Below, one piece after another: positions 1-47,253 of a DNA stretch of 64,000 nucleotides (its first letter is position 1; each line of letters begins with the position of its first letter). Source of the stretch: Phoronis australis (taxonomy: Eukaryota; Animalia; Phoronida); contig NMRA01000311.1 in NCBI GenBank assembly GCA_002633005.1, positions 73,839 through 137,838 on the forward strand, read 5' to 3'. The translations under genes and the position numbers were made by a program. The notes beneath the pieces were generated by a model. It was not told the origin of the DNA and ran no database searches. It saw only the letters and a list, made by a program, of their open reading frames with translations.

Positions 1-1610
1 TTGAGTTTTAGTTTGTCTTGAACAAAGGTTCTTTAACATCAATTTCACGAAGTCTGTGCAGAGGTGAGGTTAGTATGGTATTCACTGCGTCCATTCGAAA
101 CAAAGAAAAAATAAGTCTTTCCCTAATTGCAATCAAAGCCTTAATTTCATTACAGATAGCAATTTAATACAATTTTTTCAATCACCCACAGGGTGACCAG
201 ATCTGATCATGCCAAGACTCATGATCAACTGATACTCTGTGTTCCCACTGTTGTTTTAAAGTGGCATAGGACATGAAAATCATACTAAATTGCTTTATTC
301 AAAGTAGTTCTCTGTAACTGAAACAAAAGTCAAACTGTTCACCAGGTATTTTTATGTTTTGTTCGTAAAGATTTCTGTTGATATCAAAGCATTTTTCTTT
401 TAGTTCCAAATTTCAAAACAAGCTGTCTAGTGCTCGTCACTTCCTCGAATTTTCTCCACCACAGCAATGCATATCTCCTTATTTGGTATGGCAAGACATA
501 GATGTCATACATTTCCCTTATATGGAAATTGTGACCTTTGACAATTGCTGTAAACAAAACACTGGCGATTTCAAGCAGCAGCAAATCTGACTTCTTTGAA
601 AGCATGCTTGCATGAATATTATAGGGGTGGAGAATTAGATAAGTGTACTGGGATGAAAGAGTTATATTTCATTCGCGTTTCAAAAGCGGTGAATCTGACG
701 ATTTTTTCTAGAAATTCTTACAATATTCAAGGTGAATAACCTTAGCATCTCCAAGAAGTAGATTTGCTACAATCTGTTTAGAAGGTAATTTTTACGAGTT
801 TTCGCATTACTTGCCTCTTAAGAAAAATCTTCAGTTTATTGTCAAGTGCCCATACTACACAATATAAAAATCAGTTTGATTACTTCATCTTGTTCTCTAC
901 CACACCAGCACACACAAACACAAAACACAAACACAAACACACACACGCACGCACGCACACACATACACTGCACAAATCCAACTCAAAACTATATATATAG
1001 CTTTGCACTGGTGTGGGTAAAAAATGGCCAAATAAAATGTGGCAAAAATTTGCGTCATTGAAAACTACTCTTCCTTGAGTAGACTAAATTATTTACCGGT
1101 GTTGGAAAAATGGGTGTTCTACCATTATTCTGCATCTAAAGTTGTGGAGTGATCTTTTGCACCGGCTTTCGGTGTCATGAAATACTGCATCAGTTTCTTT
1201 TTCCGCTAATTCTTCAATCAACTACTACTCTTCTTTCATGAGGTTTGCATGAATGTCACAGCAAATTATCAGAACTGGTTTCGTTTCGTTACAAGTTTTC
1301 AGTATTTTAAGGCCAGCAAACCACAGTTTAGAACAAATTTTGCTGGTACAAAGCTGTTATCATCTCCCAAGAGAGATGTCGATCAAACATTTCACAAGTT
1401 ACAAGTATACTGTTTATCAAAACTATGACAGATTTTTCTGTTTTACAAAAGTCGGAGAATTATGCAAGACAATGATGTTTAGCTTGTTTTTCACTTAAAC
1501 GGCTGCAACGAGCAAGGTGAGCCTGTGTCAGTTGACTCCCAGATTTTGCTTGCAACCTCACTGGTCGTTAGCGCTAGATATTGATATAGGTTTTGTCGTA
1601 ATAGCCGAGA

Positions 1611-1685
1611 TTGCCCAACCTCGGGAATCGAACCACCAACCCCGATTTAACCGGCGAGCGTGCTAACCATTCAGCTAATAGGCAA
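1611..1685 (-). promoter_or_regulatory. tRNA-like Pol III module in LTR (second copy at 2059-2133)
   Basis: A-box TAGCTGAATGG, B-box GGTTCGATTCC and a 7-bp acceptor-like stem TTGCCTA/TGGGCAA. Confidence 0.75.
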
Positions 1686-1791
1686 TTGCCCGTTAGCGAG
1701 TGGCTAACAGAGGCTCATATGTGATTCACCGGAAGCACTTTCACAACATTCCCCCCTTTCCTATCAACAAGCACGCCATCAGCCAACTAGG

Positions 1792-1958
1792 TGTACCTTA
1801 CATTATGCCTGTACATGCACCTTACACCATGCCTGCACACGTACCTTACATTATGCCTGTACACGTACCTTACACCCTGTCTGTACATGCACCTTACATT
1901 ATGCCCGTACATGCACCTTACATCATGCCTGCACATGCACCTTACATTATGCCTGTAC
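1792..1958. repeat. 24-bp minisatellite (~7 copies) inside the TRIM
   Basis: Unit ~gcaccttacattatgcctgtacat. Confidence 0.9.
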
Positions 1959-4209
1959 CCTACCAACAAGCGTGCTGTCTCAGGACCCAGGGTCTATGAA
2001 GTGCTTCATCGGTATATCATCCGTTTGCCGACTACGCCAATTGTCGTAATAGCCGAGATTGCCCAACCTCGGGAATCGAACCACCGACCCCGATTTAACC
2101 GGCGAGCGTGCTAACCATTCAGCTAATAGGCAATTGCCCGTTAGCGAGTGGCTAACAGAGGCTCATATGTGATTCACCGGAAGCACTTTTACAACAGTTT
2201 CATGGCAAGGTGATGAGCAGAACTACCCAAGCTGCGAGAAATTTCGGGGTCTAACGGAGCTCAACACTCAACGGTCCCAGCCGTATTTTGTCGATAGTTT
2301 TCATACAGCTAGTTGAAGTTGGCTGGCAAGCCTAGCTGTGACTTCGTTTTGTGTATGTGCACCCGGTTGGACACCACATTTTGTACAACAATTACAAATG
2401 ATCAGAATGTCGAAGTAATATGATTGTGTAAAATTTTTTCACCATTTTTCAGCCTTGTCAATGTGTTCCTTGGCTTCCGCAACCTTTCTGTCCGAGTTCA
2501 TTTCTTGTCCGTCCGTTTGGATAAATCTGTCAATATGTTACTCAGCAATAACAATATTGACCCTTACAGGAACTTTGCAAAATGATCAGTACGCAACAAA
2601 AAATGCATAAAAATAAATTTAAATGGTACTGTGTAAATATGAATAATGTCATGAACATATATTTTCTGATATTTTCAACTGATCTAGTACATTTTCTGGC
2701 TACTCTTTTACTATTATTCATGAACACTACTTCCGGAGTAATGGTGTCTGCTTGATGCGTCAGAAATGTGAACACAACACGAAGTTTTCTGTTAAATTTT
2801 CTGTCTGTGTAAAGAAATGTAAATGCTGTCTTGGTCAAAACCAAAACATTTGGATTTGGAAACGCGTTTCTTTTTTCTCTTTTATATCTGCAGAACAGAG
2901 TTTACTTCGTCTGTTTTATGTCAACAAATTTCAGTGTGAAGTCCGTGGGGACCTCGGCAAGGCCAAGGGGCGTTCTCACTGAGTCTGTCTAGCCCAGACC
3001 GTGTGATTGCGTAATAGGGCCTAAATGTTTTAGCACAAACATTAAATTAGCTTAAGTCAGGTCACCAGCAGCCATCAAAACTCAGGAATGATTCAATCTA
3101 GGTGTATTATGGTGTAAGTGACGTAATACTCTGGAGAAATTGTGGTCACTTGAACCAAGAAGAAACGGCCTGAGACTGAGTTTATTGCCTGTGCAAATTT
3201 TTTTAGTAACCTATATTTATATTGTGTCTTGTGAGAGTGGTCCCAAATAGGGCAAGAACTGTAATATCCAGCAAAAGTTGCACATTCTTCTTGACAGTAT
3301 GGCTATGCAAATATACTGTGAAATAAAGTACTTATTATAGGTAGGTTCATTTATTAAGTAGAAAATAGTCTGGTTGTTTCAAAATGGTGTGTAGAAATAG
3401 ATAGCACATCATGTTGCCAAGTAATATGGTAACGATTCCGTTTCAACAGTTAATTTTGGAAAGTAAGTTAACAGTGTTTTAAATTTGTGATTCCGTGTGT
3501 GAGGTACGGTCACAATTTTTTGTCTTTTTCAGTAAATTGCCTACCAGTGGCAATGGACAGTTGATTAAATTGTCGATTGGTTTGGCATGCTAAAAATGAG
3601 CTAAATGTTCAAATCCCAGCTATGAACATGTAGATTTTCCTGCAATGCAGGCCCCCAAGGACAGTGAGATTCACTACCCTGAAGTACATGTACAAGTGAG
3701 GCTCATAGGGCAGAATTGTTCTTTGGTGTTATTTCAGAGCTTTTAGGGAACTGACAGTTTTTGCTGGTTTAAAGACCTTTTAGTTCATCCCTAGCCCAGA
3801 GAGTCACTTCATAAGTGAGCAAGGAACAAGTTAAGACCAAGTTTACAACGGTGAGTGGTCTGAATCAAAATTGGATTTTGATAGAAAGCACAAAAATGTG
3901 ACTTTTGAGCATCACCATTTTTAGTGCACCATTTCTTATTTTCTGAACCTTAGTAATTGTCAAAAATACCTTTTTGTTTGTTTAAGTTTTGTACAGTTTA
4001 GTTGAGACTTCACAGTATTTTTAGAAGTATTGTTTTTGCGGTTTTCAGCCTTAGATGTCACAAATTGGGATTGGGAAGTTTCCATTTGCTGTAACACTTT
4101 ACAAACTTCTAGAAATAAAGTAAACTTACAGACATCACTTTGACTGGTCAAGGAATGATTGTCCACCAATGTTGTTATCCTCAGGCTGTAGTTTTGTCCA
4201 GTGTACATC

Positions 4210-4335
4210 ATGGAGGGTGTCCGACATCGTTCTGCTTCTGGGAAGCACCTGGCAAAATATGGCGCTACATTTGAACCACCTAAAGATGATGCACTGCACT
4301 ATCCTGAGGATGATACACACTCCTTCTTTGCCAAG
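4210..4335 (+). CDS. CLC coding exon 1 (MEGVRHRS...HSFFAK)
   Basis: ATG at 4210 and donor AAG|gtatag. An upstream acceptor cctcag at 4184 implies a 5'UTR exon further up. Phase 0 joins exon 2 as FFAK-GRDFE. Confidence 0.75.
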
Positions 4336-7300
4336 GTATAGTAACATTGGTCTACTCTGGAAGTGTTTGAGCCTATACGGTTGAGCTGGGAAGGGAACCG
4401 TAGTAAATGGTTGTGTGAGTGCAGGTGATGTCTGGTGGTGCATCAGACGTGTGTAGATCACACTGGGGGAGGGACATTGCACGTAATACTTGAGGGGAAG
4501 CCCACGAGAGCCTTTCTGTTGGTTGTAGATATTTCGTGATGGAGGTTTTCAAGTCCTGATATGGTCTAAGAGGGTTCTTAATTTCCTGTGCAAAGACAAT
4601 TCATTTTCTTTCATATAAGTCATTGATGTGTCACAACTCCTTTCATCCACTTAGCTCAAATTCTGTCTCCATGTTACTGTAATTCGAGTACACGCACATT
4701 ATTGCGAGAATTGTTTTTCAATTGTTCAAATGCTGATAACCTTGCTACAAGTAATAAAAAGGTTATGCAATGTTGCAACATCTACTCAGTACGTTTAACA
4801 TGATTATAATATTTACGGTAAAATCTCTTTAATTTACGACATGAATATGCAATTAGTGCAATTATATTTTAATTTAATATTATTTCCATGCTACATATGC
4901 AGTACCAAATACATTTCCATGTTCAAGTTTTGTATTACATCTATCATTAGACAAACATTTGAAAATTTGTGGGCATTCTTGTAAATCTGTGGGCATTCGA
5001 AGCATTGTTAGAGCCTTTTGTCAAATCAATGAAGGCATTTTGGCAATTATTTCTGCCCAAAGTCTCTGAAATTTTGCCATATTGAGAAATTTGACAAAAA
5101 AAAATAAATTTCTACTTTTACTGTTATATTGATCTGCTTACTTGGTGAAAAACTAGCTGTCCTTAGTGACTAACTAGTACTCACTTGTTAACTTACCATT
5201 TGCTTTTTAGGGCCGTGACTTTGAGAGTGCTTACGTTAACCACCAGTACACAGTCAAAGAACGAGAGACTCTATCCACATATGAGAGTGCTGACTACTTG
5301 CCATCACACAGTCTGGTGTATAAACACTGGCTGAAGAGACAGCCTAGGAGGTACTTTACTGACCATGCATCTGTTGAAAAATGTCTTTAATGAGCCAGAA
5401 ATGTTGTCTTGTGCTCCACGCAACTAATCTGAAAAATAATTAAATACCACTTAATGAGCAAAAGTGCAAAGTGTCTGAAAATAAACAGCTAATTGCTAAT
5501 TACAGAGAAAGTTTCCATCAATTACTTTTAGACTGCCATGCACTCATAATTACTTGACTAAACTTTTAGACTGCCATGCACTCATAATTACTTGACTAAA
5601 CTTATAGACTGCCATGCACTCATAATTACTTATAGACTGCCATGCACTCATAATTACTTGACTAAACTTTTGCTGTTGTGGAGTGGGAACCTAAGATCAA
5701 CTTTCTGTCTTTAAAGTCTACGTGGTCTCTTTTCATGATTTAAAGTCTACGTGGTCACTTTTCATGATTTAAAGTCTACGTGGTCTCTTTTCATGATTTA
5801 AAGTCTACGTGGTCACTTTTCATGATTTAAAGTCTACGTGGTCACTTTTCATGATTTAAAGTCTACGTGGTCACTTTTCATGATTTAAAGTCTACGTGGT
5901 CACTTTTCATGATTTAAAGTCTACGTGGTCACTTTTCATGAAAGAGACCCCAGGGATCTTTGAAACAGACCCCAGAGAGAAACAGACTCCTGAGTTTTGT
6001 AAAGTGCTTTATAAAACCTTTGTCAGTTTTTGTCGAAAGAAGCAGAATTGTACGAAATATTTGTGGGTTCAAGAACTTAAAAGTAAACTTGTTAATAGAA
6101 TCTGATATGTGTTGTACATTTCTAAGTCTTATTCAGCATAATTACATTAGTTAAGTTAAAGAACGACACTGTAATTTGTTGATCAAGTTTGAGTCAACTA
6201 AAAGACTTCCCTGCCAACAGAACTCTGCTTTGTCGTGTTTAATTCATAACAGGAGTTCTCTCATCAAAAACGCCCCCTGTCATATTCATGGTGCATGTAA
6301 GTTTATAATGGAAACAAAGTAATTGTTTGGAAGCTATAATATCTCAAGTTATTGATTATTTGAATGGTTTATTTCGCATCGTTCGTTTTCCTATTCCTAT
6401 GTTTTTATTTGTCCAGACTTGACTGGGACCGATGGTTGATGATGGGTTTCATTGGGTTTGCCGTTGGATTTGTTGGGTTTTTGCTGCATCAGATTATTGA
6501 CGTACTTTCCGACCTGAGGTGGGAAAAAGCAAGAGAATATATTGCTGTAAGTATCTACATATGTAGACTGAGACTGAGCTTGGCTATCATGTGTCTTTGT
6601 AGTCATATAGCAGGGTAGCCATGTTGCATAGTCCTGCGAGCTGGCTGATTAAAAGGCTTTAACTTTAAAGCTTTTTATACTTTGGTGCAAAGCTGTAACA
6701 GGTTTGGGCCATTGTGGGTGGCATTCTGACATAAAATTAGTGTCATTAAAAACTACACTATTCCTTGAGTTAACAAATTGTTTAGCGGTATTTGAAAAGT
6801 AGGCAGTCTACCGTTAATCTGCTGTTAAAGTTGTGGAGCGATCTTATGCATCGTCTTTCGGTGCAATGAATTACGGCATCACCTATAGGCCAGTTTAATT
6901 TTTCGCGGATTCTTCAATCAACTGGTTGCATATGTGTCACAAAAAAATATCAGAACTGGTTTCATTTCTGAAAGTTTTTTATTTAATAACAGCAAACCAA
7001 ATTTCAGAACAAACTTTGCTGCTGTGAAGGTGCCATTCTCTCTCGAGAGATGTCGCAAAAAATTTAGATAATGGCGTGTGTCATGGTCGTACTGTTTTCA
7101 AAACCGATGATTTTTCTTTATTACAAAAGGCTTAGAATTGTGCAAGAAAACAATGTTTTTTTAGATTGTGTTCACTTAATATATGGCTGCAGTGGGCAGG
7201 GTGAGTGTTGGCTGAATCCAACCCACCGGTCATTAGCTCTACAGGTTGATATAGATTTCATGACGAGGTGGCAAGCAAAACTACTTGGATTGTGTGAAAT

Positions 7301-10300
7301 TTTGAGGTCTATTGGAGCTTAACGCTTAGTCGTTCCTAGTGTATTTTGACAATAGTCATCATACAGCTAGTTGGCTGGCTAATAATTCGTGTGCTTTCAG
7401 GGCTATTTATAATAGAACGTGCAATCTCTCTGAGTCTATAGCTATAGTGTTATCAAGTGTTTTTTACATGAAGCCCAATGTTAATTTAGTGGACTACTTT
7501 CTGTAGCCTCACAGCAAATGAAATCAATTTCATTTGCCAATTATAGTTTATTTGTATTTGTATTGAAGGCCTCTGGCCCAAAGTACAATAAACAAAACAA
7601 TTAATCAGGCACATTTGCACAAGCAGTCAACCCATTTAAGAGTTGTTCTCGTCTTTTAAGGGCAAAATACACATATTTAACAGCAGATATATCTGGATTA
7701 GCGAGCAGACATATACAGGATTCTTGAGTTGGATGCATGCAGTAGGAATTCTAACAGTGAAAATTTTTCTGCTAATTTCAACCTAGTTCATGCCTACGAA
7801 TGATAATCGAAGGTCAACTGTCTTTAGGTTTGCAAGTGTTAAAAGCTGTTACGTTGTCTATTCCAGGATCCCAACTTTATGCTGGCCTGGGTGTAGGTGA
7901 TGGGGTTCAATGTTATGTTGTCTATTCCAGGATCACAACTTTGTGCTGGCCTGGGTGTGGGTGATGGGGTTCAGTCTCCTCTTTCTGTTGCTGAGTACAA
8001 CATCAGTCGTAGTAAGTATGGGGTACATAATAAAGCATTTGCATTAAAAACCCTGCTTAGTTTTAACTCCAGACAACAGCAGTGTCCGAATCAAGGCTAA
8101 GTCAGATATCTATCTATAAGTCCTTTGTTATGCGTTCCCGCGTTCTTTTGTCCATCATCACAACTTGCAGGCTAATTTCCTTATTAAAATCACATTTCTT
8201 TGGTAAAAAATGATCAGCCAGGTAAATACAGCTTTAAGTCTTTCACTTTAATCTTTGTTTTCAGTTCCTTCGCCCCAGTGCCGGAAGCTCAGGTATCCCA
8301 GAGTTGATTGGTTTCCTTAATGGCACCGTAGTTCGACACATCTTCAACATAAAGACAATGGTGGTCAAGTTCTTCTCCTGCTGTATGGCTGTAGGCAGCG
8401 GGATGCCAGTTGGGCCTGAGGGACCAATGATTCACCTAGGGTAGGCAGGAAGATGCCGGTTGGGCTTTAGGGACCAATGATTTACTTAGGGTAGTATGGC
8501 GTGTGAGGCAAACAGTTTGGTGATGGCTATAGTGTACCTGATGGATTTTTATAGGAAACCTTCCACATGTAACCGCTTAAAGATTTAGTCCAGTCGTGGA
8601 CATCACTGAAAGTACCTAATGTTTTGAAAATGAGGTCAAGCTGGTAGCATGTTTTCAACCTGTTGGAATGGATTTTAATCCAACCTTTATAGCGTTCCAT
8701 TTTGACAGGAATTGCCTCTGTTAGATCCTATACTGGGTGTTCCAAAAATGTCAACAAAAATGCTCAATGTCAGAAAGTGGTTTTACTGACAAGTAGCAGT
8801 GTTTTTTGTATTCCAGGTGTAAATAATTTTCTTGCACCAGGCACAAAAATTAGAAAAATGTCTCAGTTGGATCTAATTGTAGAAAAATGATGAAAGAACT
8901 GTGCACAACTGTTCTTCTAAAAGACACTGTTTTCTAGAGGGACTAAATATGTCTTATTCAACTGCTGCAGACCTATCATTACAGTGATTTTTTCTCATTT
9001 TGTTGATCAGGAACTCAGGATACAGACGTCTTGTTATCAGTTTGACTGTGACAGCAGAGGGGGAAATTTGGCAAACAAAATAGAATGTTTACATAGTTCA
9101 GCTTTCTCATTGTCTGGGTTCAGTGATAAGCTCATGTAATCCAGCAATTGTAAACAGCATGTCTGACTCTAACTGATATGTAAGAAATACTATTTGCAAA
9201 CAACATTCAACAAATGTCATGAAGATTTGTTTTTATGAAATACTATCACCAAAAGACTTTGAACGAAGAAAATGAACGTGTTACCGTATCTACCCCTTAT
9301 CGGACCAATTGTAACGGGATAGTCTAACCTAAATTTTGGTGACCTACTTATGGAGCATCGATGCCATGCGCTATGCTTCGGAAAATTAAAGAATCTAGTG
9401 AGGCTTTTATGAATGAAAGGTAGAGTATGGTAATCAAAGAAAATAAGCAAATGATTTTCATTTGTTTTTAGTTTTATTTATCTCCACCTTTGAATGAAAA
9501 GTTGCATCCTAGGTGACACTCTGATTGAGTCAATTTGCGTCTTTTGCAGTTTGGTTGCATCAAATGATGCAAAAACACAACCTCGAGAGAATACTGAATA
9601 GGCTTGTTTGTCAATAATTGAACATGATTCTAGGTCAGATCGTGATGTTGGAAATTTCTTGGTTTTAGCAGTCCAAAGAAATATCTAGTACGTAACGTGT
9701 TCAAATTGAATCCTGACTTAAAAACATTACAATTTTACTCTTTCTTTGCCTTTGTACATCAGATTTCATTCTTCAATAATCCTCTATTGCTGCACTGAAG
9801 CTGCAAAAATGGTTGTGTTCGGTACCAAAACTCAAAAAAGAATCAGCTGTGGCACTTTCTCTATCTTTTTAATACTGCAACAGACTTTGTGACTCCTGGA
9901 GTAAAAAAACTTTCACTTGTTAGATCTCTGTGAGGCTGTATCCTCATATTTTAGAATGTTTCAGCAAACATTTTTGTGGGTCACCCTGTATATTGTAGTT
10001 TTTATGTGTTTACTAAAAGTTTTAAATGTTTTGAAATTTTCAGAAGCTTAGTTGGTGCAGGCCTGAGTCAGTTCAAGTCAGACACACTGAAGATCACGTT
10101 ACCGTTCTTTGAGAGATTCAGAAATTCTGAAGACAGGTGCGTGATTTGTGTTTTTCTCGTCATTTTATCTACCCAGTACAACTAACTCTCATTTAGTTTG
10201 TATTCCAGACGATACTGCTTTTCAGGGCCCTGATATCAATCTTTATTTGTTAATTGCACGGCTCAGTGTTGTCTGATGTCAAGATGAAAACACCATTTAT

Positions 10301-19300: not shown

Positions 19301-22300
19301 TTTGTTTTATTTTTGTTGATATTTTGCATGGATTCTTTGATGGAGCATTTTATGCCGTCCTTGAACATGCTATGAACATTCCCACTAAATAAGATTGGTT
19401 CTAACCCCAGTGGTTAAGGCAAACGGTGGGGTATGGAAAATTGAACTAGACTGTATTTATCCACCTTGGCTGAGTCGCGCTCGGCTCACGATCAAAGGGA
19501 TGCCGCCAAGCTGCTCTAGTCATCGAGTCACGAGCGAGGATAATTGGCTTCGCTCATGCGGATATGATCAGCTGATTACAATCTAGCTAGCAGACTGTAC
19601 TTTTTATGGAGAGAGTTTTACGTAGTTTTTACTGTAATATGTGAAAAGAGGAGCGAAAACAAATATGAGTACAACTTTGAATTTTTCAAATCGGCCCAGG
19701 ATAAGAGATTTTGCAACACAGCAACACTCACGATTACTTTCATTCGGCGCGCACTAATACAAAAATATAGGACCCAAGTTATTTAGATTTTGGAACACAT
19801 GCATTGCAATATTCAAAATACGTTTATTATGAATCTTACAAGCTGTAAAACGACGTTGTTAATTTCATTGTGTTCATTCATTGTCATCCGTCAAATCGGC
19901 AATTTCCGAGATGTGATCTGCGGCGTGCGCGTATGTGTACAAAACACGTGATTGTTATGTTCCTGAAGTACGAAAATTAAGAAGGCTTTAACATGCCGTT
20001 ATTATTGACAGGGACACGATAAAACGAATTTGGATTTTGACTATAGTCTTGATACAGCGATCTGACTGACCACTGCGTCAGTGTCTCCGTTAGACCCAGA
20101 AATTTCACACAGCCCGGGTAGTTCATTTCGTCCCCAACATGTAGATCGAGCCTTGGACTATTAATACTCCACGGCAGAGCTAACGACAGTCGGCCTGTGC
20201 ACACAAAATCTGTGAGTTAACCAGCACTCACCTTGCACGTTACAGCCGTTTAAGTGAAAAACAATCTAGTAAACGCCATTTTCTTGCATAATCCTCCGCC
20301 TTTTGTAACAAAAAAGTCTATCGTCGATGACCCGCACACGCACGCTCACTCACTCTCATACACAGACGACCTTCAAAACAAACGTCACGTGACAACAACA
20401 TGTGTGTTCATCCAGAGATTTTTCTCTTGTTGTGGAGTACGATGTAGCGCACATTTGGACTTAATCGCAATTAATCTGGACTCCACATGAACTTTAAAAA
20501 TTGTAAAACATCAGGAAGATTTCAGGTAATTTGTTGAGTCGAAACTATATTTTTATTCAAGAGTACAAGTTTTCCTATTGACGATGGCGATTCAGCGGCG
20601 ACGCATCAGTCGGCAAGTTTTCGCCCTGTGATGAGCACAATTTTTTGAAAAATTATCGTAATTTAACAACGGAAGTTCATAGCAATGCACCACAATTTTG
20701 TAGAAAGACTGTCATAGGCTAAAAATTCGTCACAAAGCGTAAATTTTATGAATCCTAGCTTCCGATTTTACCCGTTTGGGAAACCGGCTTTCAACTGCCG
20801 TAGGCTACAATAAGAATCCCCTCCCCGTGAAATGATTTTTTCTAAGCGTTTATTAGAGCCAATACAGTATACAGCTTTCCACCAAGGCTAGGTGATACTA
20901 CGACATTATTCTTTGTTGCATTAGTAACTGGTCTTGGCTAATATTATCATTTTATGGCCTGGTCATCCATTCAGCCAAAAGTAGTTCCAGAGGTGGCTTA
21001 TCAGCCAATTATTCACGCATGCTGACTCACAATAGAAGCCTGATAAGAGTGAAGGTGGATAAATGCGGTGTTCCTACAGTTTCTTGTTTTAGTGGATGTG
21101 TTCACGACATGAATTATGTTTAGGTATTGGTAAAAGTTTCACAATCTTATGAATTTCTTATCATAAACTTATCATTTATTGCACGAAGGGCAATGTGACA
21201 TAGAGAAAGTGCTTTCGTTGGCTTAAGGTTATGTAAGATCCTAAAAAATTGTCCAAATTTGGCAAATTTTTGGAATGTCATACCTCAAAAATGGCTGATT
21301 GGGTTTCTTAAGAAAGTTTCAGATATTATGCACTTTGTATTGTTCTCCAAAACTTTGTTAAGACTTTTATGATTTCCATGGAAAAACTGATAAAAGGAAA
21401 ACAAAAAGATAATTTAGAGAACTGTAGCAGCGTTTTTGAGAATTAATCTTGAACATTTGTGTCTGATAAAATTTTATCATGTTATAGAAGTGATTGTTTT
21501 GCCATCAATAAACATTTTTTGCTAAATTTTACTAAAAAAACGTCATCACATGACACGATTAATGGGGTCCGTCATTGATAAAATGTGAAAATTTTAATTC
21601 TTCGGGCTTTTTACTTTCAGAAAATAATTACATACTTTTACTGAATTAAAATCTATAATTTCTTGGTATTTGTCTAAGTACGCATACTTGGCAGTAGCGT
21701 CATGCATAATCTTAAGGATTTTCTGAAATGTTGCCGTGAACCGTATCGTCTTATAGAATTTTAATACGGATTCATAGATTTTAACTCGTGTTTCCATGGT
21801 TTCTATTGAAGAAACATCAAAGTTGTTATAATTAGTGAGGGAGAATATTTCCCTTGCAACTAGAAAATGAATCAGTGCCGGTATGTTTTAAGGTGATAAA
21901 GTTTGTGTTATCACAACTTTCTCTCATTTGCTGTACTTGTTTAATAGCTGAGCTGTGAACAAGTAACCGACCATCAGTTGCTATTGGCAGCTTAACCATG
22001 CAACTGAAAAACTTGTAGCATTTATGCTCTCAACATGCTTGACCATTTGTTCAATAATTGTCCTACCTTCAATGATTGTGTTACACTGTTTGGATAAATG
22101 AAATTACGAAACTTTTTAAATTGACTGATTTTGATTTTGAATTCTTCATCATATGCTGATGGTGTTTGGTTTTTAAATCGCATGCTAAATCTTTCATTAG
22201 TAACCAGTCTCAGACGTTTTACTGTGTTTAAGTCACTTAGAAGTGACTTTCATATCACTTAGAAGTGACTTTCAAGTCACTTAGAAGTGACTTATAGATT

Positions 22301-25300
22301 ATAAGCTACATGTTGTGATAACGGACAATAGACTTGGTGGAACTCTCATCGTCTGGGATGGCCTCTGAATGAGAGACTTTTTGATTAGAATTTTGCTGAG
22401 CATACTTTTTGCAATTTGATTTCCATGTCACGTTGTTCTTTATATCTGATGCAATATATTGATGATTTGCTTGTTAATCCGCCCAGACTGGAGATCACGG
22501 TCCTGCTTATGAATGAGGACATGTTCACGTCGACTGACACGCCCCCTGTTGAGGAGCTGGAGGTGACCCATGTGGAATATCAGCAACTAACGCTAGACAA
22601 ACTGTCCAATCCTGAGCGGACGCAGACTGTACTGCTACACTACTGCAACGACCCTAAATACAGCAGGCTGTATGTTAATTTGGTGCGTATCTGTACATTA
22701 TTTTCCTTAATGGACAATTTATCCACACCTTCTGTCGAAACTAATTTTTGATTTGGGCCAATTACAGTTATGTTATAAAATCAGTCTCCTCATGTTCTAT
22801 CCTTAAATTAGAAATGGATTCTAAGGTTGACTGAGAAACACTCGTCTGACAGGTTGTCGCGGTAATGGTCTGATATAACGTGCCCGAATTCTGAGAACCA
22901 GTTTTCCCCACTAAATAATGGGCATCAAACTGGTTCTCAAAATGCGGGCACGTTATATTAGACTATTGCCGATTGTCACTGCTTCAGATGAAGGCGGCCA
23001 TTAAGTTGCTTATCATGATGGATTAGTTTCAGTAGCCAATGAAGTTTGAAGCCTTCTGTGGAATTACTAGCAATTTAGTGTAACCTATTTCAACTCAAAC
23101 AAAGAAGAAAGAGATTTTGTTGCTTTGGGAATGCTGAAACACACCTGTAAAGAAAGGGGGTGGTATATAGTTGTTTTAGTAATATACTGACTTTCACTGG
23201 CCTTGATGGTAAAGAATCCGGGTTTATTGTAGTTCCAGGTTAAGTCTTAACTTGTACCCCTGAAAACCAGAATGACTTATTTGAATTGTCAAAGAATGAA
23301 GCAAACTTTCGGTTGCCTTTATAACAAACTTCATCAGAGAAATAAAAATAGTCATTTGGCATATAACATCCTTGGAAAAATCATTCCGTAAAATCTCACC
23401 ATTTTGGACACAATATAGCAGACAAGTGGAACTATTTTTTAATCTTTTAATAAATGATGAATAGCACCAAACAACGCTTTATTATTTTTAAGTTCTGTGC
23501 CGTAGCTGCCCACAGACAATGTTATTGAAAAATTGTGGTTGTTCTGTCATGCTATGAACATTCCCACTAAATAAAATTGGTTCTAACCCCAGTGGTTAAG
23601 GTAAACGGCGGGGTATGGAAAATTGAACTAGACCATATTTATCCACCTTGGCTGAGTCGCGCTCGGCTCACGATCAAAGGGATGCCGCCAAGCTGCTCTA
23701 GTCATCGAGTCACGAGCGAGGATAATTGGCTTCGCTCATGGGGATATGATCAGCTGATTACAATCTAGCTAGCAGACTGTACTTTTTATGGAGAGAGTTT
23801 TACGTAGTTTTTACTGTAATATTTGAAAAGAGGAGCGAAAACAAATATGAGTACAGCTTTGAATTTTTCAAATCGGCCCAGGATAAGAGATTTTGCAACA
23901 CAGCAACACTCACGATTACTTTCATTCGGCGCGCACTAATACAAAAATATAGGACCCAAGTTATTTAGATTTTGGAACACATGCATTGCAATATTCAAAA
24001 TACGTTTATTATGAATCTTACAAGCTGTAAAACGACGTTGTTAATTTCATTGTGTTCATTCATTGTCATCCGTCAAATCGGCAATTTCCGAGATGTGATC
24101 TGCGGCGTGCGCGTATGTGTACAAAACACGTGATTGTTATGTTCCTGAAGTACGAAAATTAAGAAGGCTTTAACATGCCGTTATTATTGACAGGGACACG
24201 ATAAAACGAATTTGGATTTTGACTATAGTCTTGATACAGCGATCTGACTGACCACTGCGTCAGTGTCTCCGTTAGACCCAGAAATTTCACACAGCCCGGG
24301 TAGTTCATTTCGTCCCCAACATGTAGATCGAGCCTTGGACTATTAATACTCCACGGCAGAGCTAACGACAGTCGGCCTGTGCACACAAAATCTGTGAGTT
24401 AACCAGCACTCACCTTGCACGTTACAGCCGTTTAAGTGAAAAACAATCTAGTAAACGCCATTTTCTTGCATAATCCTCCGCCTTTTGTAACAAAAAAGTC
24501 TATCGTCGATGACCCGCACACGCACGCTCACTCACTCTCATACACAGACGACCTTCAAAACAAACGTCACGTGACAACAACATGTGTGTTCATCCAGAGA
24601 TTTTTCTCTTGTTGTGGAGTACGATGTAGCGCACATTTGGACTTAATCGCAATTAATCTGGACTCCACATGAACTTTAAAAATTGTAAAACATCAGGAAG
24701 ATTTCAGGTAATTTGTTGAGTCGAAACTATATTTTTATTCAAGAGTACAAGTTTTCCTATTGACGATGGCGATTCAGCGGCGACGCATCAGTCGGCAAGT
24801 TTTCGCCCTGTGATGAGCACAATTTTTTGAAAAATTATCGTAATTTAACAACGGAAGTTCATAGCAATGCACCACAATTTTGTAGAAAGACTGTCATAGG
24901 CTAAAAATTCGTCACAAAGCGTAAATTTTATGAATCCTAGCTTCCGATTTTACCCGTTTGGGAAACCGGCTTTCAACTGCCGTAGGCTACAATAAGAATC
25001 CCCTCCCCGTGAAATGATTTTTTCTAAGCGTTTATTAGAGCCAATACAGTATACAGCTTTCCACCAAGGCTAGGTGATACTACGACATTATTCTTTGTTG
25101 CATTAGTAACTGGTCTTGGCTAATATTATCATTTTATGGCCTGGTCATCCATTCAGCCAAAAGTAGTTCCAGAGGTGGCTTATCAGCCAATTATTCACGC
25201 ATGCTGACTCACAATAGAAGCCTGATAAGAGTGAAGGTGGATAAATGCGGTGTTCCTACAGTTTCTTGTTTTAGTGGATATGTTCACGACATGGTCCAAT

Positions 25301-30690: not shown

Positions 30691-32682
30691 CCTAAAGCCC
30701 CACCTGTGGTACAATACAGGAAAACGTTTACATAATCCAACACAACATGAATGAAAACTGCACTCAGTGAACTCAGCACTCCCCTCAATCTTCTAAAGTG
30801 TGAACTTGTCTTCCTTGTCAACAAGGCCGTACCCAGTGGCATGTATTTAGAGATTTTTTCACAAGGAGAAAAATGGAAGACTGGTTTACAAATAAAACAT
30901 GATTACGTAATAGTATTTGTATCAGCTACAGATGTGTCAGTCACATGTGTTGGCTCATAGTAACAAAGGCGAAATCACCAGGTATTCAGGTGTTAATTGA
31001 CACTTGTTGAACTACAAAATGTTTCATGGACTGGCTGATATGTCCTTGGAGTTTGTTTTGATTCTTATCAGAATGTTTAATTAAATGTACTTGTTATGAC
31101 TGATCAAATTATGTGGCAGTACAAGAGCCATGGGAAATGTTGTGTTGATTGTCAATCTGCAAAACATGTCTTGTTACTTAAACACTCGGTGGTTTCATGT
31201 TTTCATGTAGTTGGGCTTTATCAACAATTGGCAAGCACACAAATTTGCAAAGACTACAAATTATAATATCATTTTCATTGTTTTTAGTATAACATGGACC
31301 AATTCTCAGTGGGGTCATTACATATTTTATAATATACCAGCTCCTTATTTTTTCATATGTCTATATTTCTGTTAATCTGTTTGTCCCAGTTTTAAAGAAT
31401 ACAAGAGAAGTGCTTTTCATAGTATAAGAATCCAACATGTTTTCGGCATTGTCTTTTTCACCCCCTTTATGTTGATTGTGGGTACGAGATCTTCCCCAGT
31501 CTTTATTTTATGATAAAGGAATCCTGTGTATGTCTATCATCGTAGATCATTATCAGAATATTAAAGTGTTGAAAACAGATTGTTTTATGATGTCATTATT
31601 AATTATTAATATATGCAAATACAATATTACTGTCATCTGAAACATCTTTGCCATTTGCAGCTCAGAGCAGTTGCAAAATTTTTAAGCAATAGGATGCCGG
31701 GTCTCGGATAGAAATCTCCTGTCTTGGAGGTACGATTATGCGTTGCAGTCAAGCATTGTTTTACAAAAAATGTTGGATTGAGTCTAGGAATCACGGCAGC
31801 AAATATCACATCCACGGGTACCTCTGAAGTGCATTCAACTTTCTGGCATCGGAGTTGCAGCCCACAGCACTGTAGTAAAAGTTAGTGGGCAGTGTGAAAT
31901 TTCCAAGTCTGTGAATTTTACATGCATACTTTTCTATTTTTACTCTTAAGTCTATATACACCTGGCTTGCCAACTTTAGAAACAGCACTGCTNTACATAA
32001 CGCTTAATCGTCGTGAGAGACCGTCCCGAGTTGGTATGTGGTGCAACTCGGGACGGTCTGGGGTCTACAGAAAACCATAGTTCAACTGTGAGTCTACACC
32101 AATGTGATAAACGAGAGTAGTTCTACTTGCTGCATCAGCTGCTAGTATGCTTATCTCTTTTATGACACACAATGTGCGACTGGGCAAAGCGTTTTCAAAA
32201 TAATGTGGATAAATCAGTGGAGTGTGAAACCCCTGAGGTCCCTGTCAAGTCCTCACGGCAATTTTACGTTATGGGATGCCGGGTCTCGGATAGAAATCTC
32301 CTGTCTTGGAGGTACGATTATGCGTTGCAGTCAAGCATTGTTTTACAAAAAATGTTGGATTGAGTCTAGGAATCACGGCAGCAAATATCACATCCACGGG
32401 TACCTCTGAAGTGCATTCAACTTTCTGGCATCGGAGTTGCAGCCCACAGCACTGTAGTAAAAGTTAGTGGGCAGTGTGAAATTTCCAAGTCTGTGAATTT
32501 TACATGCATACTTTTCTATTTTTACTCTTAAGTCTATATACACCTGGCTTGCCAACTTTAGAAACAGCACTGCTATTGATTATGCACTATGGATTTTTTG
32601 CACTTTTTACTCACTGGATTTGTTTGTATAAGGATCTTTACTTTTCTGAATTTAGTATTTTCAGCAATAGACCTATTTTTCA

Positions 32683-46983: not shown

Positions 46984-47253
46984 AGATCAACTTTGAGTCA
47001 AATACTAGAATAAAAACTACCGACGTTGCGTCCGCATCTCAGAGACTTCAGCTTGGCTTGTGACACTATCGTTATTCTGGCCAATTGGTGGCGTTTTGAA
47101 CAGACAGCGCAGCATTGACATCTGTTCGAAACGCCACCAATTGGCCAGAATAACGATAACGTCACAAGCCAAGCTGAAGTCCATGAGATGCGGTCGCAAT
47201 GTTGCTAATTTCTTGTAAAGTTTTTATTCTAGTACTAGACTCAAACTTGATCT
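46984..47253. mobile_element. ~270-bp foldback/hairpin MITE
   Basis: Long inverted arms (gatcaa..tgagtc..tactagaataaaaact...gacttcagcttggcttgtgac..tatcgttattctggccaattggtggcgttt) around a ~15-nt loop. Confidence 0.75.

What the first reader, a model, noticed from the sequence alone, without database searches (positions are those of the whole stretch)
1594..2196. Young miniature LTR retrotransposon carrying its own tRNA-like Pol III cassette in each LTR
Seen: 155-bp LTRs differing at 2 positions, a GTTT TSD, a tRNA-Ser-type PBS, a PPT and no ORF. Each LTR holds a 75-nt tRNA-like module with consensus A and B boxes, oriented the same way as the element. Known: Cassandra TRIMs carry 5S-derived sequence in their LTRs, and the Helenus group carries tRNA-like sequence with 4-bp TSDs in animals. 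Inference: this is a recently active Helenus-like family, possibly uncatalogued, transcribed by Pol III and mobilised in trans by a Ser-primed Gypsy-type partner. It sits ~2 kb upstream of the CLC start codon.
Basis: partly seen in the sequence, partly recalled or inferred. Interest (0 to 1): 0.8.

Follow-up and report, generated by a model that had tools for sequence, protein, structure and literature searches.

The report
Helenus-type mini-retrotransposon with conserved hairpin
A 603-base, gene-less jumping element in an invertebrate genome carries tRNA-type promoter motifs in both end repeats; it is a new family of the Helenus kind described in 2024, is likely copied by RNA polymerase III and moved by another retrotransposon's enzymes, and its end repeats are predicted to fold a hairpin that seems shared with distant relatives and is not mentioned in the describing paper's text.

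Summary
Observation confirmed. The element lies on the minus strand and has 155-bp LTRs (2 differences), a 4-bp TSD, a 14-nt tRNA-Ser PBS, a PPT, no ORF, and A/B boxes in each LTR. An in-window paralogue of the older repeat it sits in shows the empty site. Reads show many diverged copies, LTR-PBS and LTR-PPT junctions, shorter variants and a likely solo LTR with its own 4-bp TSD. It meets every structural criterion of animal Helenus (Kojima 2024). Its PBS type and sizes are absent from the published set, and the host is a non-mollusc lophotrochozoan, so it is a new member of a known kind. Pol III transcription and the Gypsy helper stay inferred: RNA-seq showed no element-sense excess, and no genome was held. 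Additions: it lies in likely intron 1 of a minus-strand gamma-SNAP-like gene, not just upstream of ClC. Each LTR is predicted to fold a 24-pair hairpin in which U3 is antisense to the A-box region. By eye the same geometry recurs in coelacanth, zebrafish, bivalve and nemertean Helenus and in Ajax. The scan has found Helenus elements, and noted this hairpin, before on other DNA.

The parts
1594..2196 (-). Whole non-autonomous LTR retrotransposon (TRIM), 603 bp
   Evidence: left and right junctions each matched by a DNA contig with 0 differences (records 2 and 8)
2042..2196 (-). 5' LTR, 155 bp, TG...CA
1594..1748 (-). 3' LTR, 155 bp, 2 transitions from the 5' LTR
1590..1593 (.). Target-site duplication GTTT (left)
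   Evidence: single 4-mer at the matching place in the paralogue near 7255
2197..2200 (.). Target-site duplication GTTT (right)
2026..2039 (-). Primer-binding site, 14-nt complement of the tRNA-Ser(AGA/TGA) 3' end
1749..1762 (-). Polypurine tract abutting the 3' LTR
1795..1958 (.). 24-bp tandem array x6.8 in the internal region; predicted to fold as a rod; absent from some copies
   Evidence: z -7.4; joint 1764-2000; joint 1778-1963
2059..2133 (-). tRNA-like module in the 5' LTR (A box 2125-2115, B box 2082-2072)
   Evidence: not called a tRNA
1611..1685 (-). tRNA-like module in the 3' LTR (A box 1677-1667, B box 1634-1624)
2104..2164 (-). Inverted repeat in the 5' LTR: U3 arm complementary to the first ~30 nt of the module including the A box; 24 predicted pairs, 4-nt loop
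   Evidence: z -5.8, 0 of 300 shuffles
1656..1716 (-). Same inverted repeat in the 3' LTR, the only copy whose U3 arm would be transcribed
1045..2320 (.). Older interspersed repeat (unclassified, about 670 bp without the insert) into which the TRIM jumped
   Evidence: 70-79% paralogues at 6733-7373, 20085-20322, 24267-24504; high read depth on both flanks
2443..2501 (-). Likely first coding exon of a gamma-SNAP-like host gene (ATG 2501, GT donor 2442); the TRIM lies 246 bp into the intron, same strand
   Evidence: minus-strand RNA depth in 3 of 3 RNA runs; only PDB hit is gamma-SNAP N-terminus, weak, E 3.9
4210..4335 (+). First coding exon of the ClC chloride channel gene (context only)

Best explanation
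This is a recently inserted copy of a multi-copy, non-coding LTR retrotransposon of the animal Helenus kind, which is likely transcribed by RNA polymerase III from the A/B boxes in its 5' LTR and likely reverse-transcribed and integrated in trans by a tRNA-Ser-primed Ty3/Gypsy element. Shown: LTRs, PBS, PPT, 4-bp TSD, empty paralogous site, many related copies. Inferred steps: (1) TFIIIC binds the boxes and Pol III starts a few bases upstream of the A box (about 2130-2140). It reads through this copy, which has no T run on the sense strand, into or past the 3' LTR; the first T4 lies 143 nt beyond the element. (2) The U3 arm, which is antisense to the RNA's first ~30 nt, is transcribed only from the 3' LTR. 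It is predicted to pair with the RNA's 5' end (a panhandle) or with the 3' copy of the module, and would help the first strand transfer and/or 3'-end formation. (3) Helper Gag packages the rod-like RNA, host tRNA-Ser primes at the PBS, the PPT primes the second strand, and the helper integrase leaves a 4-bp TSD. The module is a promoter relic, not a working tRNA.
For: Structure. Empty site: with the element and one GTTT removed, the flanks align continuously to the paralogue at 6926-7373 (70% over 480 columns), which has one 4-mer at the junction. In DNA contigs of 3 runs of one sample, other paralogues join about 1547-1560 to 2196. Other copies: contigs 87-93% alike span LTR+PBS (e.g. 1967-2167, 1986-2185) and LTR+PPT starting exactly at 1594. 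In RNA run X7, loose ends at both LTR edges (79 and 67 reads) read as a solo LTR with a 4-bp GGGC duplication, if both ends are from one copy. Pol III: consensus boxes; no TATA, AATAAA or ATTAAA in the LTR; no TTT on this copy's sense strand (1.0% of mono- and 0.8% of dinucleotide shuffles, 23 of 2478 background windows). Hairpin: z -5.8. The 2 listed variants inside it (82% and 89% of X4 depth) both turn G-C into G-U, and this part of the LTR has the highest depth of related copies. Helper type: Kojima links animal Helenus PBSs only to Gypsy. Ty3/Gypsy elements with this exact 12-nt PBS are listed for a fly and a sponge (3 rows).
Against: No element-sense excess of RNA. In 3 stranded RNA runs (strand set by the ClC exons), LTR depth was 49-81 sense versus 67-133 antisense, internal depth 0-5, and 82-88% of laid reads ran on into unrelated sequence. 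Only 18-19% of each run was read and library selection is unspecified. The T-free sense strand is not family-wide: 72% of X4 depth carries T at both of two loop positions, which makes a T4 in the anticodon-like loop. Box conservation across copies is not significant (0 of 11 listed sites in 22 box positions, p=0.17; 128 rows not shown), nor is hairpin conservation (2 of 11 in 61 nt, p=0.12). The predicted 5'-3' panhandle depends on the assumed ends: 19-24 pairs in 4 of 6 trial transcripts, under 3 in the other 2. No helper element was seen, no single contig spans a second whole element, and the DNA runs may be the assembly's own source.
Confidence: 0.75

Rival explanations
1. An ordinary TRIM transcribed by Pol II (own weak promoter or read-through from host genes); the tRNA-like piece is a passenger left by an old SINE insertion into the LTR.
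For: RNA reads over the LTR come from both strands and mostly run on into other sequence. The module is too decayed for ARAGORN or Rfam. Most copies carry a T4 inside the module. Helenus Pol III activity is untested in the describing paper.
Against: Both boxes are perfect consensus at tRNA spacing while the body between and after them varies among copies. No TATA or poly(A) signal in the LTR. The box and hairpin layout recurs in families from other phyla (by eye).
Confidence: 0.15
2. The copy is old and its LTRs look young because gene conversion homogenised them; the family is no longer mobile.
For: This copy differs from the majority of related copies at 9 of the 11 listed LTR sites, and most laid contigs are under 95% alike. 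No exact empty allele is among the joints shown (89 not shown).
Against: Both LTRs share the window's letter at all 11 sites, the TSD, PBS and PPT are intact, and the host repeat around it has decayed to about 70%. One joint shows the 5'-LTR allele joined to a PPT, suggesting a near-identical sibling copy.
Confidence: 0.07
3. The hairpin is a by-product of one old fold-back duplication and does nothing; Helenus families arose many times independently.
For: Kojima argues for multiple origins. Not all animal families show a clear arm (by eye), this element lacks the exact junction motif common in the others (0 hits), and no covariation test could be run.
Against: The arm tracks each family's own A-box region with different letters: by eye 20 of 23 positions pair in coelacanth LTR1_LCh, 17 of 19 in mussel Helenus-1_MoPh and 11 of 11 in Ajax-1_LiLo, with a mismatch at the same place next to the inner stem in the first two and here.
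Confidence: 0.3
4. Two tRNA-derived SINE copies duplicated in tandem around a minisatellite, or an assembly artefact, and not an LTR element.
For: An internal minisatellite is present and the window has other near-identical duplications.
Against: TG...CA ends, a PBS 2 nt from one repeat, a PPT abutting the other, a 4-bp TSD with an empty paralogue, and both junctions in contigs.
Confidence: 0.01

Closest known systems
Animal Helenus TRIMs (TRIMp3), Kojima 2024, PMC10886601. Read: whole main text (parts 1-6 of 6) and supplement parts 1, 5, 6, 7, 9, 10, 11 of 11, plus motif searches of the whole file; figures not held
   Same: Under 1 kb, no ORF, two LTRs with a tRNA-like sequence and A/B boxes, PBS, PPT, 4-bp TSD, solo LTRs. 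By eye, the same arm/loop/arm layout before the A box as LTR1_LCh, LTR-11_DR, Helenus-1_CGi, -1_MoPh, -2_NGe.
   Different: No family in Table S1 has LTR 155 / internal 293. The Ser-AGA/TGA-type PBS motif has 0 hits in the file (its Ser users have other PBS types). Internal 24-bp tandem array. Host is not one of the mollusc, brachiopod or nemertean species in the gene tree; a phoronid is my untested guess, and that phylum is not in Table 1.
Ajax TRIMs (same paper; two consensus LTRs seen)
   Same: Similar size. By eye, a hairpin whose 3' arm runs into a tRNA-type A-box-like motif; Ajax-1_LiLo has the same 4-nt loop.
   Different: Ajax carries 5S promoter boxes, a Leu PBS and 5-bp TSDs.
Cassandra TRIMs of plants (as described in PMC10886601 and in passages of PMC7215508; the 2008 original was not held)
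   Same: Small-RNA-gene promoter inside each LTR. The transcript is reported to start in the 5' LTR and end in the 3' LTR, with a predicted super-hairpin formed by the two LTRs.
   Different: 5S-derived, plant, Met-type PBS; it is the only TRIMp3 with shown Pol III transcription.
biv-TRIM of bivalves (PMC6934838, passages read)
   Same: Animal TRIM with solo LTRs and internal inverted repeats.
   Different: No canonical PBS and no A/B boxes mentioned in that text.

Membership tests
Helenus (animal) | TRIM under 1000 bp, no protein gene | tested here: met
   603 bp; six-frame translation
Helenus (animal) | Two LTRs with PBS and PPT between them | tested here: met
Helenus (animal) | [quoted passage not shown] | tested here: met
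   (2 matches, 0 in 100 shuffles); motif definition
Helenus (animal) | Sequence similarity to a tRNA or SINE2 by Censor or tRNAscan-SE | tested here: inconclusive
   those tools are not on hand; ARAGORN and Rfam found no tRNA
Helenus (animal) | 4-bp TSD | tested here: met
   GTTT with empty paralogue; second case GGGC inferred from loose ends
Helenus (animal) | Interspersed multi-copy family with the same structure | tested here: met
   junction-spanning contigs of other copies and a likely solo LTR; no contig spans a whole second copy
Helenus (animal) | PBS shared with an autonomous Gypsy element of the host | not testable with these tools
   no genome held; same PBS listed for Ty3/Gypsy elements of other animals
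TRIMp3 | Transcribed by RNA polymerase III | not testable with these tools
   RNA-seq lay shows both strands and read-through only
A published Helenus/Ajax family | Matches a consensus in Data S1 / Table S1 | tested here: not met
   5 of 6 motifs had 0 hits, only the generic B box hit; sizes and PBS absent; no full alignment; Repbase and Dfam not searchable
Ajax / Cassandra | 5S rRNA-derived promoter in LTR | tested here: not met
   no 5S hit in Rfam at E<=10; tRNA-type boxes instead
Retrozyme-type LTR elements | Self-cleaving ribozyme in the LTR | tested here: not met
   no hammerhead or twister match at E<=10; a divergent ribozyme is not excluded

The most novel reading that the evidence does not exclude
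Hairpin-type animal Helenus families (coelacanth, teleost, bivalve, nemertean, this host) and Ajax are one lineage older than the protostome-deuterostome split, or spread by transfer, rather than many independent SINE captures. They share an undescribed cis-element: a U3 arm antisense to the A-box region. Because only the 3' LTR's arm is transcribed, it would close the Pol III RNA into a panhandle or mark its 3' end, which would solve how one LTR sequence can both start and end a Pol III retrotransposon transcript.
Probability: 0.35. Interest if true: 0.6.

Novelty: new member of a known kind. Interest (0 to 1): 0.35.

Why it matters
As a family it extends Helenus to another primer type and likely another lophotrochozoan lineage, which is a modest gain. 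The useful part is mechanistic. No Helenus has been tested for Pol III transcription, and how such RNA gets its repeated ends is open. An intact, T-run-free 603-bp copy with a defined hairpin is a small, ready substrate for that test. If the hairpin is shared across phyla and with Ajax, it would revise the proposed multiple origins of these elements.

Tried and rejected
No host genome was held, so no genome-wide copy count and no helper search. A metagenome scan with a 17-nt LTR motif gave 43 loci; none extended beyond 24 nt of match, so they are chance hits. The run search listed no RNA holder, which is no evidence on expression. Summed contig depth ratios (about 3500 at the hairpin, 400 at the LTR end next to the PBS, about 20 in the internal array) are not copy numbers by the tool's own warning and are used only as 'many copies'. 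ARAGORN and Rfam found no tRNA, 5S or ribozyme; the mir-367 hit (16.9 bits against a cutoff of 54) only reflects the hairpin. I considered family-wide avoidance of T runs and rejected it, because most copies have a T4 in the loop. No pile-up of RNA ends inside the LTR was found. No terminal inverted repeats were found for the host repeat. Exon 2 of the minus-strand gene was not recognised in 1-1100. The maximum-likelihood tree did not finish; FastTree on 33 named proteins was used, leaving out 6 named and 18 unnamed rows of the first try. Earlier scan notes held no look-alike sequence and no Helenus note in this genome. Paper searches for further work on Helenus or its hairpin gave only the 2024 paper, passing citations in a meeting report and a sugar-beet paper (passages read) and one rDNA review (listing only).
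Full report
1. What is there. Two 155-bp direct repeats at 1594-1748 and 2042-2196 differ by two transitions and are flanked by GTTT on both sides. Read on the minus strand, the right repeat is followed after 2 nt by a 14-nt PBS (2039-2026), and the left repeat is preceded by a 14-nt purine tract (1762-1749). The PBS equals the complement of the 3' end of tRNA-Ser-AGA-1-1 and Ser-TGA-2-1 as listed in a table of PMC10359600 (passage read; also a tRNA-Ser template in PMC3299991, passage read). The 293-bp interior holds a 24-bp tandem array of 6.8 copies and no gene. Each LTR has a consensus A box and B box 32 nt apart on the element's sense strand; the combined pattern matches twice in 64 kb and never in 100 shuffles. 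ARAGORN and Rfam do not call the module a tRNA.

2. It is an insertion. The flanks are themselves a repeat. With the element and one GTTT removed, they align continuously to a copy at 6926-7373 (70%) that has a single 4-mer at the junction, and more loosely to two copies at 20085-20322 and 24267-24504. In contigs of three DNA runs of one sample, further paralogues join the left flank straight to 2196. Both real junctions are matched by contigs with no differences, though these runs may be the assembly's source. No exact empty allele is among the joints shown.

3. It is a family. Over 1200 contigs per run were laid at 85% or better. Listed pieces from other copies span LTR plus PBS, or begin exactly at the LTR end and run through the PPT; one joint gives a copy with an interior of about 82 bp and another lacks the array. 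In RNA run X7, loose ends at both LTR edges fit a solo LTR with a 4-bp duplication, assuming one source copy. Among the 40 best-supported difference rows of 168, 11 fall in the LTR. None lies in the 22 box positions (p=0.17), and the 2 in the hairpin keep pairing as G-U. Both window LTRs share the same letter at all 11 sites, and it is the minority letter at 9, so this copy belongs to a small subfamily. LTR divergence is 1.3% (95% range 0.16-4.7%), or 0.5-6.5 My for assumed rates of 1.3e-8 to 1e-9 per year (the rates are assumptions).

4. Host and context. The neighbouring plus-strand gene is a ClC chloride channel. Thirteen of its exons group inside Lophotrochozoa (SH-like 98), outside molluscs, as sister to two nemerteans (95) in a 34-row FastTree with no phoronid or bryozoan row. 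A phoronid is my guess and is untested. Stranded RNA reads (strand set by the ClC exons) show a short minus-strand signal just right of the element in 3 of 3 RNA runs. It matches an ATG at 2501 and a GT donor at 2442, and the 20-aa peptide's only PDB hit is the gamma-SNAP N-terminus in register, at a weak E of 3.9 (the identification was first recalled). The element therefore likely sits 246 bp into intron 1 of that gene, in the sense orientation, and about 0.5 kb from where plus-strand RNA begins (about 2725). Nothing here shows an effect on either gene.

5. The hairpin. LTR positions 33-93 (plus coordinates 2164-2104) fold into 24 pairs at -29.5 kcal/mol, z -5.8, 0 of 300 shuffles. The upstream arm is an imperfect inverted copy of the module's first 30 nt, A box included. 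A transcript starting near the loop in the 5' LTR lacks that arm until the 3' LTR is read. In 4 of 6 trial transcripts the arm pairs with the RNA's 5' end (19-24 expected pairs); in 2 it pairs locally. The whole trial RNA folds as a rod (z -7.7), largely because of the array (z -7.4). Reading the published consensus LTRs by eye, the same arm/loop/arm layout precedes the A box in coelacanth LTR1_LCh (20 of 23 positions pair), mussel Helenus-1_MoPh (17 of 19), zebrafish LTR-11_DR, oyster Helenus-1_CGi, nemertean Helenus-2_NGe and Ajax-1_LiLo (11 of 11), with different letters. These are chosen examples, not a census, and some families show no clear arm. The paper's text has 0 hits for 'hairpin' and 'palindrom'; its figures are not held, and supplement parts 2-4 and 8 were searched by motif only. 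I noted the hairpin; an earlier scan note on a mussel copy reports the same, which is not independent support. A yeast study shows that hairpins help Pol III terminate only close to a T tract (10.1101/2021.08.27.457903, abstract and section 12 read). This copy has no T tract in the 3' LTR (first T4 is 143 nt outside), so I rank the panhandle role above the terminator role here.

6. Transcription. For Pol III: perfect boxes, no TATA or poly(A) signal, and no TTT on this copy's sense strand (about 1% of shuffles). Against or neutral: LTR reads come from both strands with more antisense, 82-88% run on into other sequence, and the interior is barely covered. Most related copies have a T4 in the anticodon-like loop; tRNA-Lys(UUU) genes are read through such a run (recalled). 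These libraries may not retain Pol III RNA. The step stays inferred.

7. Helper. Not seen, as no genome is held. Kojima finds only Gypsy elements sharing animal Helenus PBSs. The supplements of PMC13524379 (passages and searched rows read) list one fly and two sponge Ty3/Gypsy elements with exactly this 12-nt PBS.

8. Verdict. It works like, and is a member of, animal Helenus by all testable structural criteria. It is not one of the published families, though it may be in Repbase. New member of a known kind; interest 0.35. The conserved U3/A-box hairpin is the part worth following (probability 0.35, interest 0.6 if true).

Noticed in passing
window 2443-2501 (-) and about 2725 onward (+): Head-to-head genes: a likely gamma-SNAP first exon on the minus strand and ClC-strand RNA starting about 200 bp away suggest a bidirectional promoter near 2530-2720.
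   Followed up: partly
window 1045-2320, 6733-7373, 20085-20322, 24267-24504: Unclassified high-copy repeat hosting the TRIM. No TIRs found; the first two copies end in CTAG followed by T, after a short hairpin-like stretch, which recalls a Helitron 3' end (recalled, untested).
   Followed up: partly
PMC10886601 Data S1, Ajax-1_NGe and Ajax-1_LiLo LTRs: By eye, Ajax LTRs have a tRNA-type A-box-like motif and the same upstream hairpin before their 5S part, suggesting Ajax arose from a Helenus-like LTR.
   Followed up: no
PMC10886601 Data S1, Helenus-2_SyJa and -2_SyUm LTRs: By eye, these wasp LTRs contain a hammerhead-ribozyme-like core (motif recalled); not tested.
   Followed up: no
window 19366-21111 and 23548-25293; 31680-31992 and 32262-32574: Near-identical local duplications (99.5% and 98.7%); the first pair lies in ClC introns. 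Real duplication or assembly artefact not checked.
   Followed up: no
window 46984-47253 and 22860-22971: Self-complementary stretches (79% over about 270 bp; 82% over about 112 bp), possibly MITE-like foldback elements.
   Followed up: no
window 4210-25765: ClC gene of the 'chloride channel protein C-like' group, at least 13 coding exons mapped by tblastn.
   Followed up: partly
window 1801-1945 (-): Each tandem unit carries a GTAAG donor-like word on the strand of the host intron (7 copies); no reads showed use.
   Followed up: no
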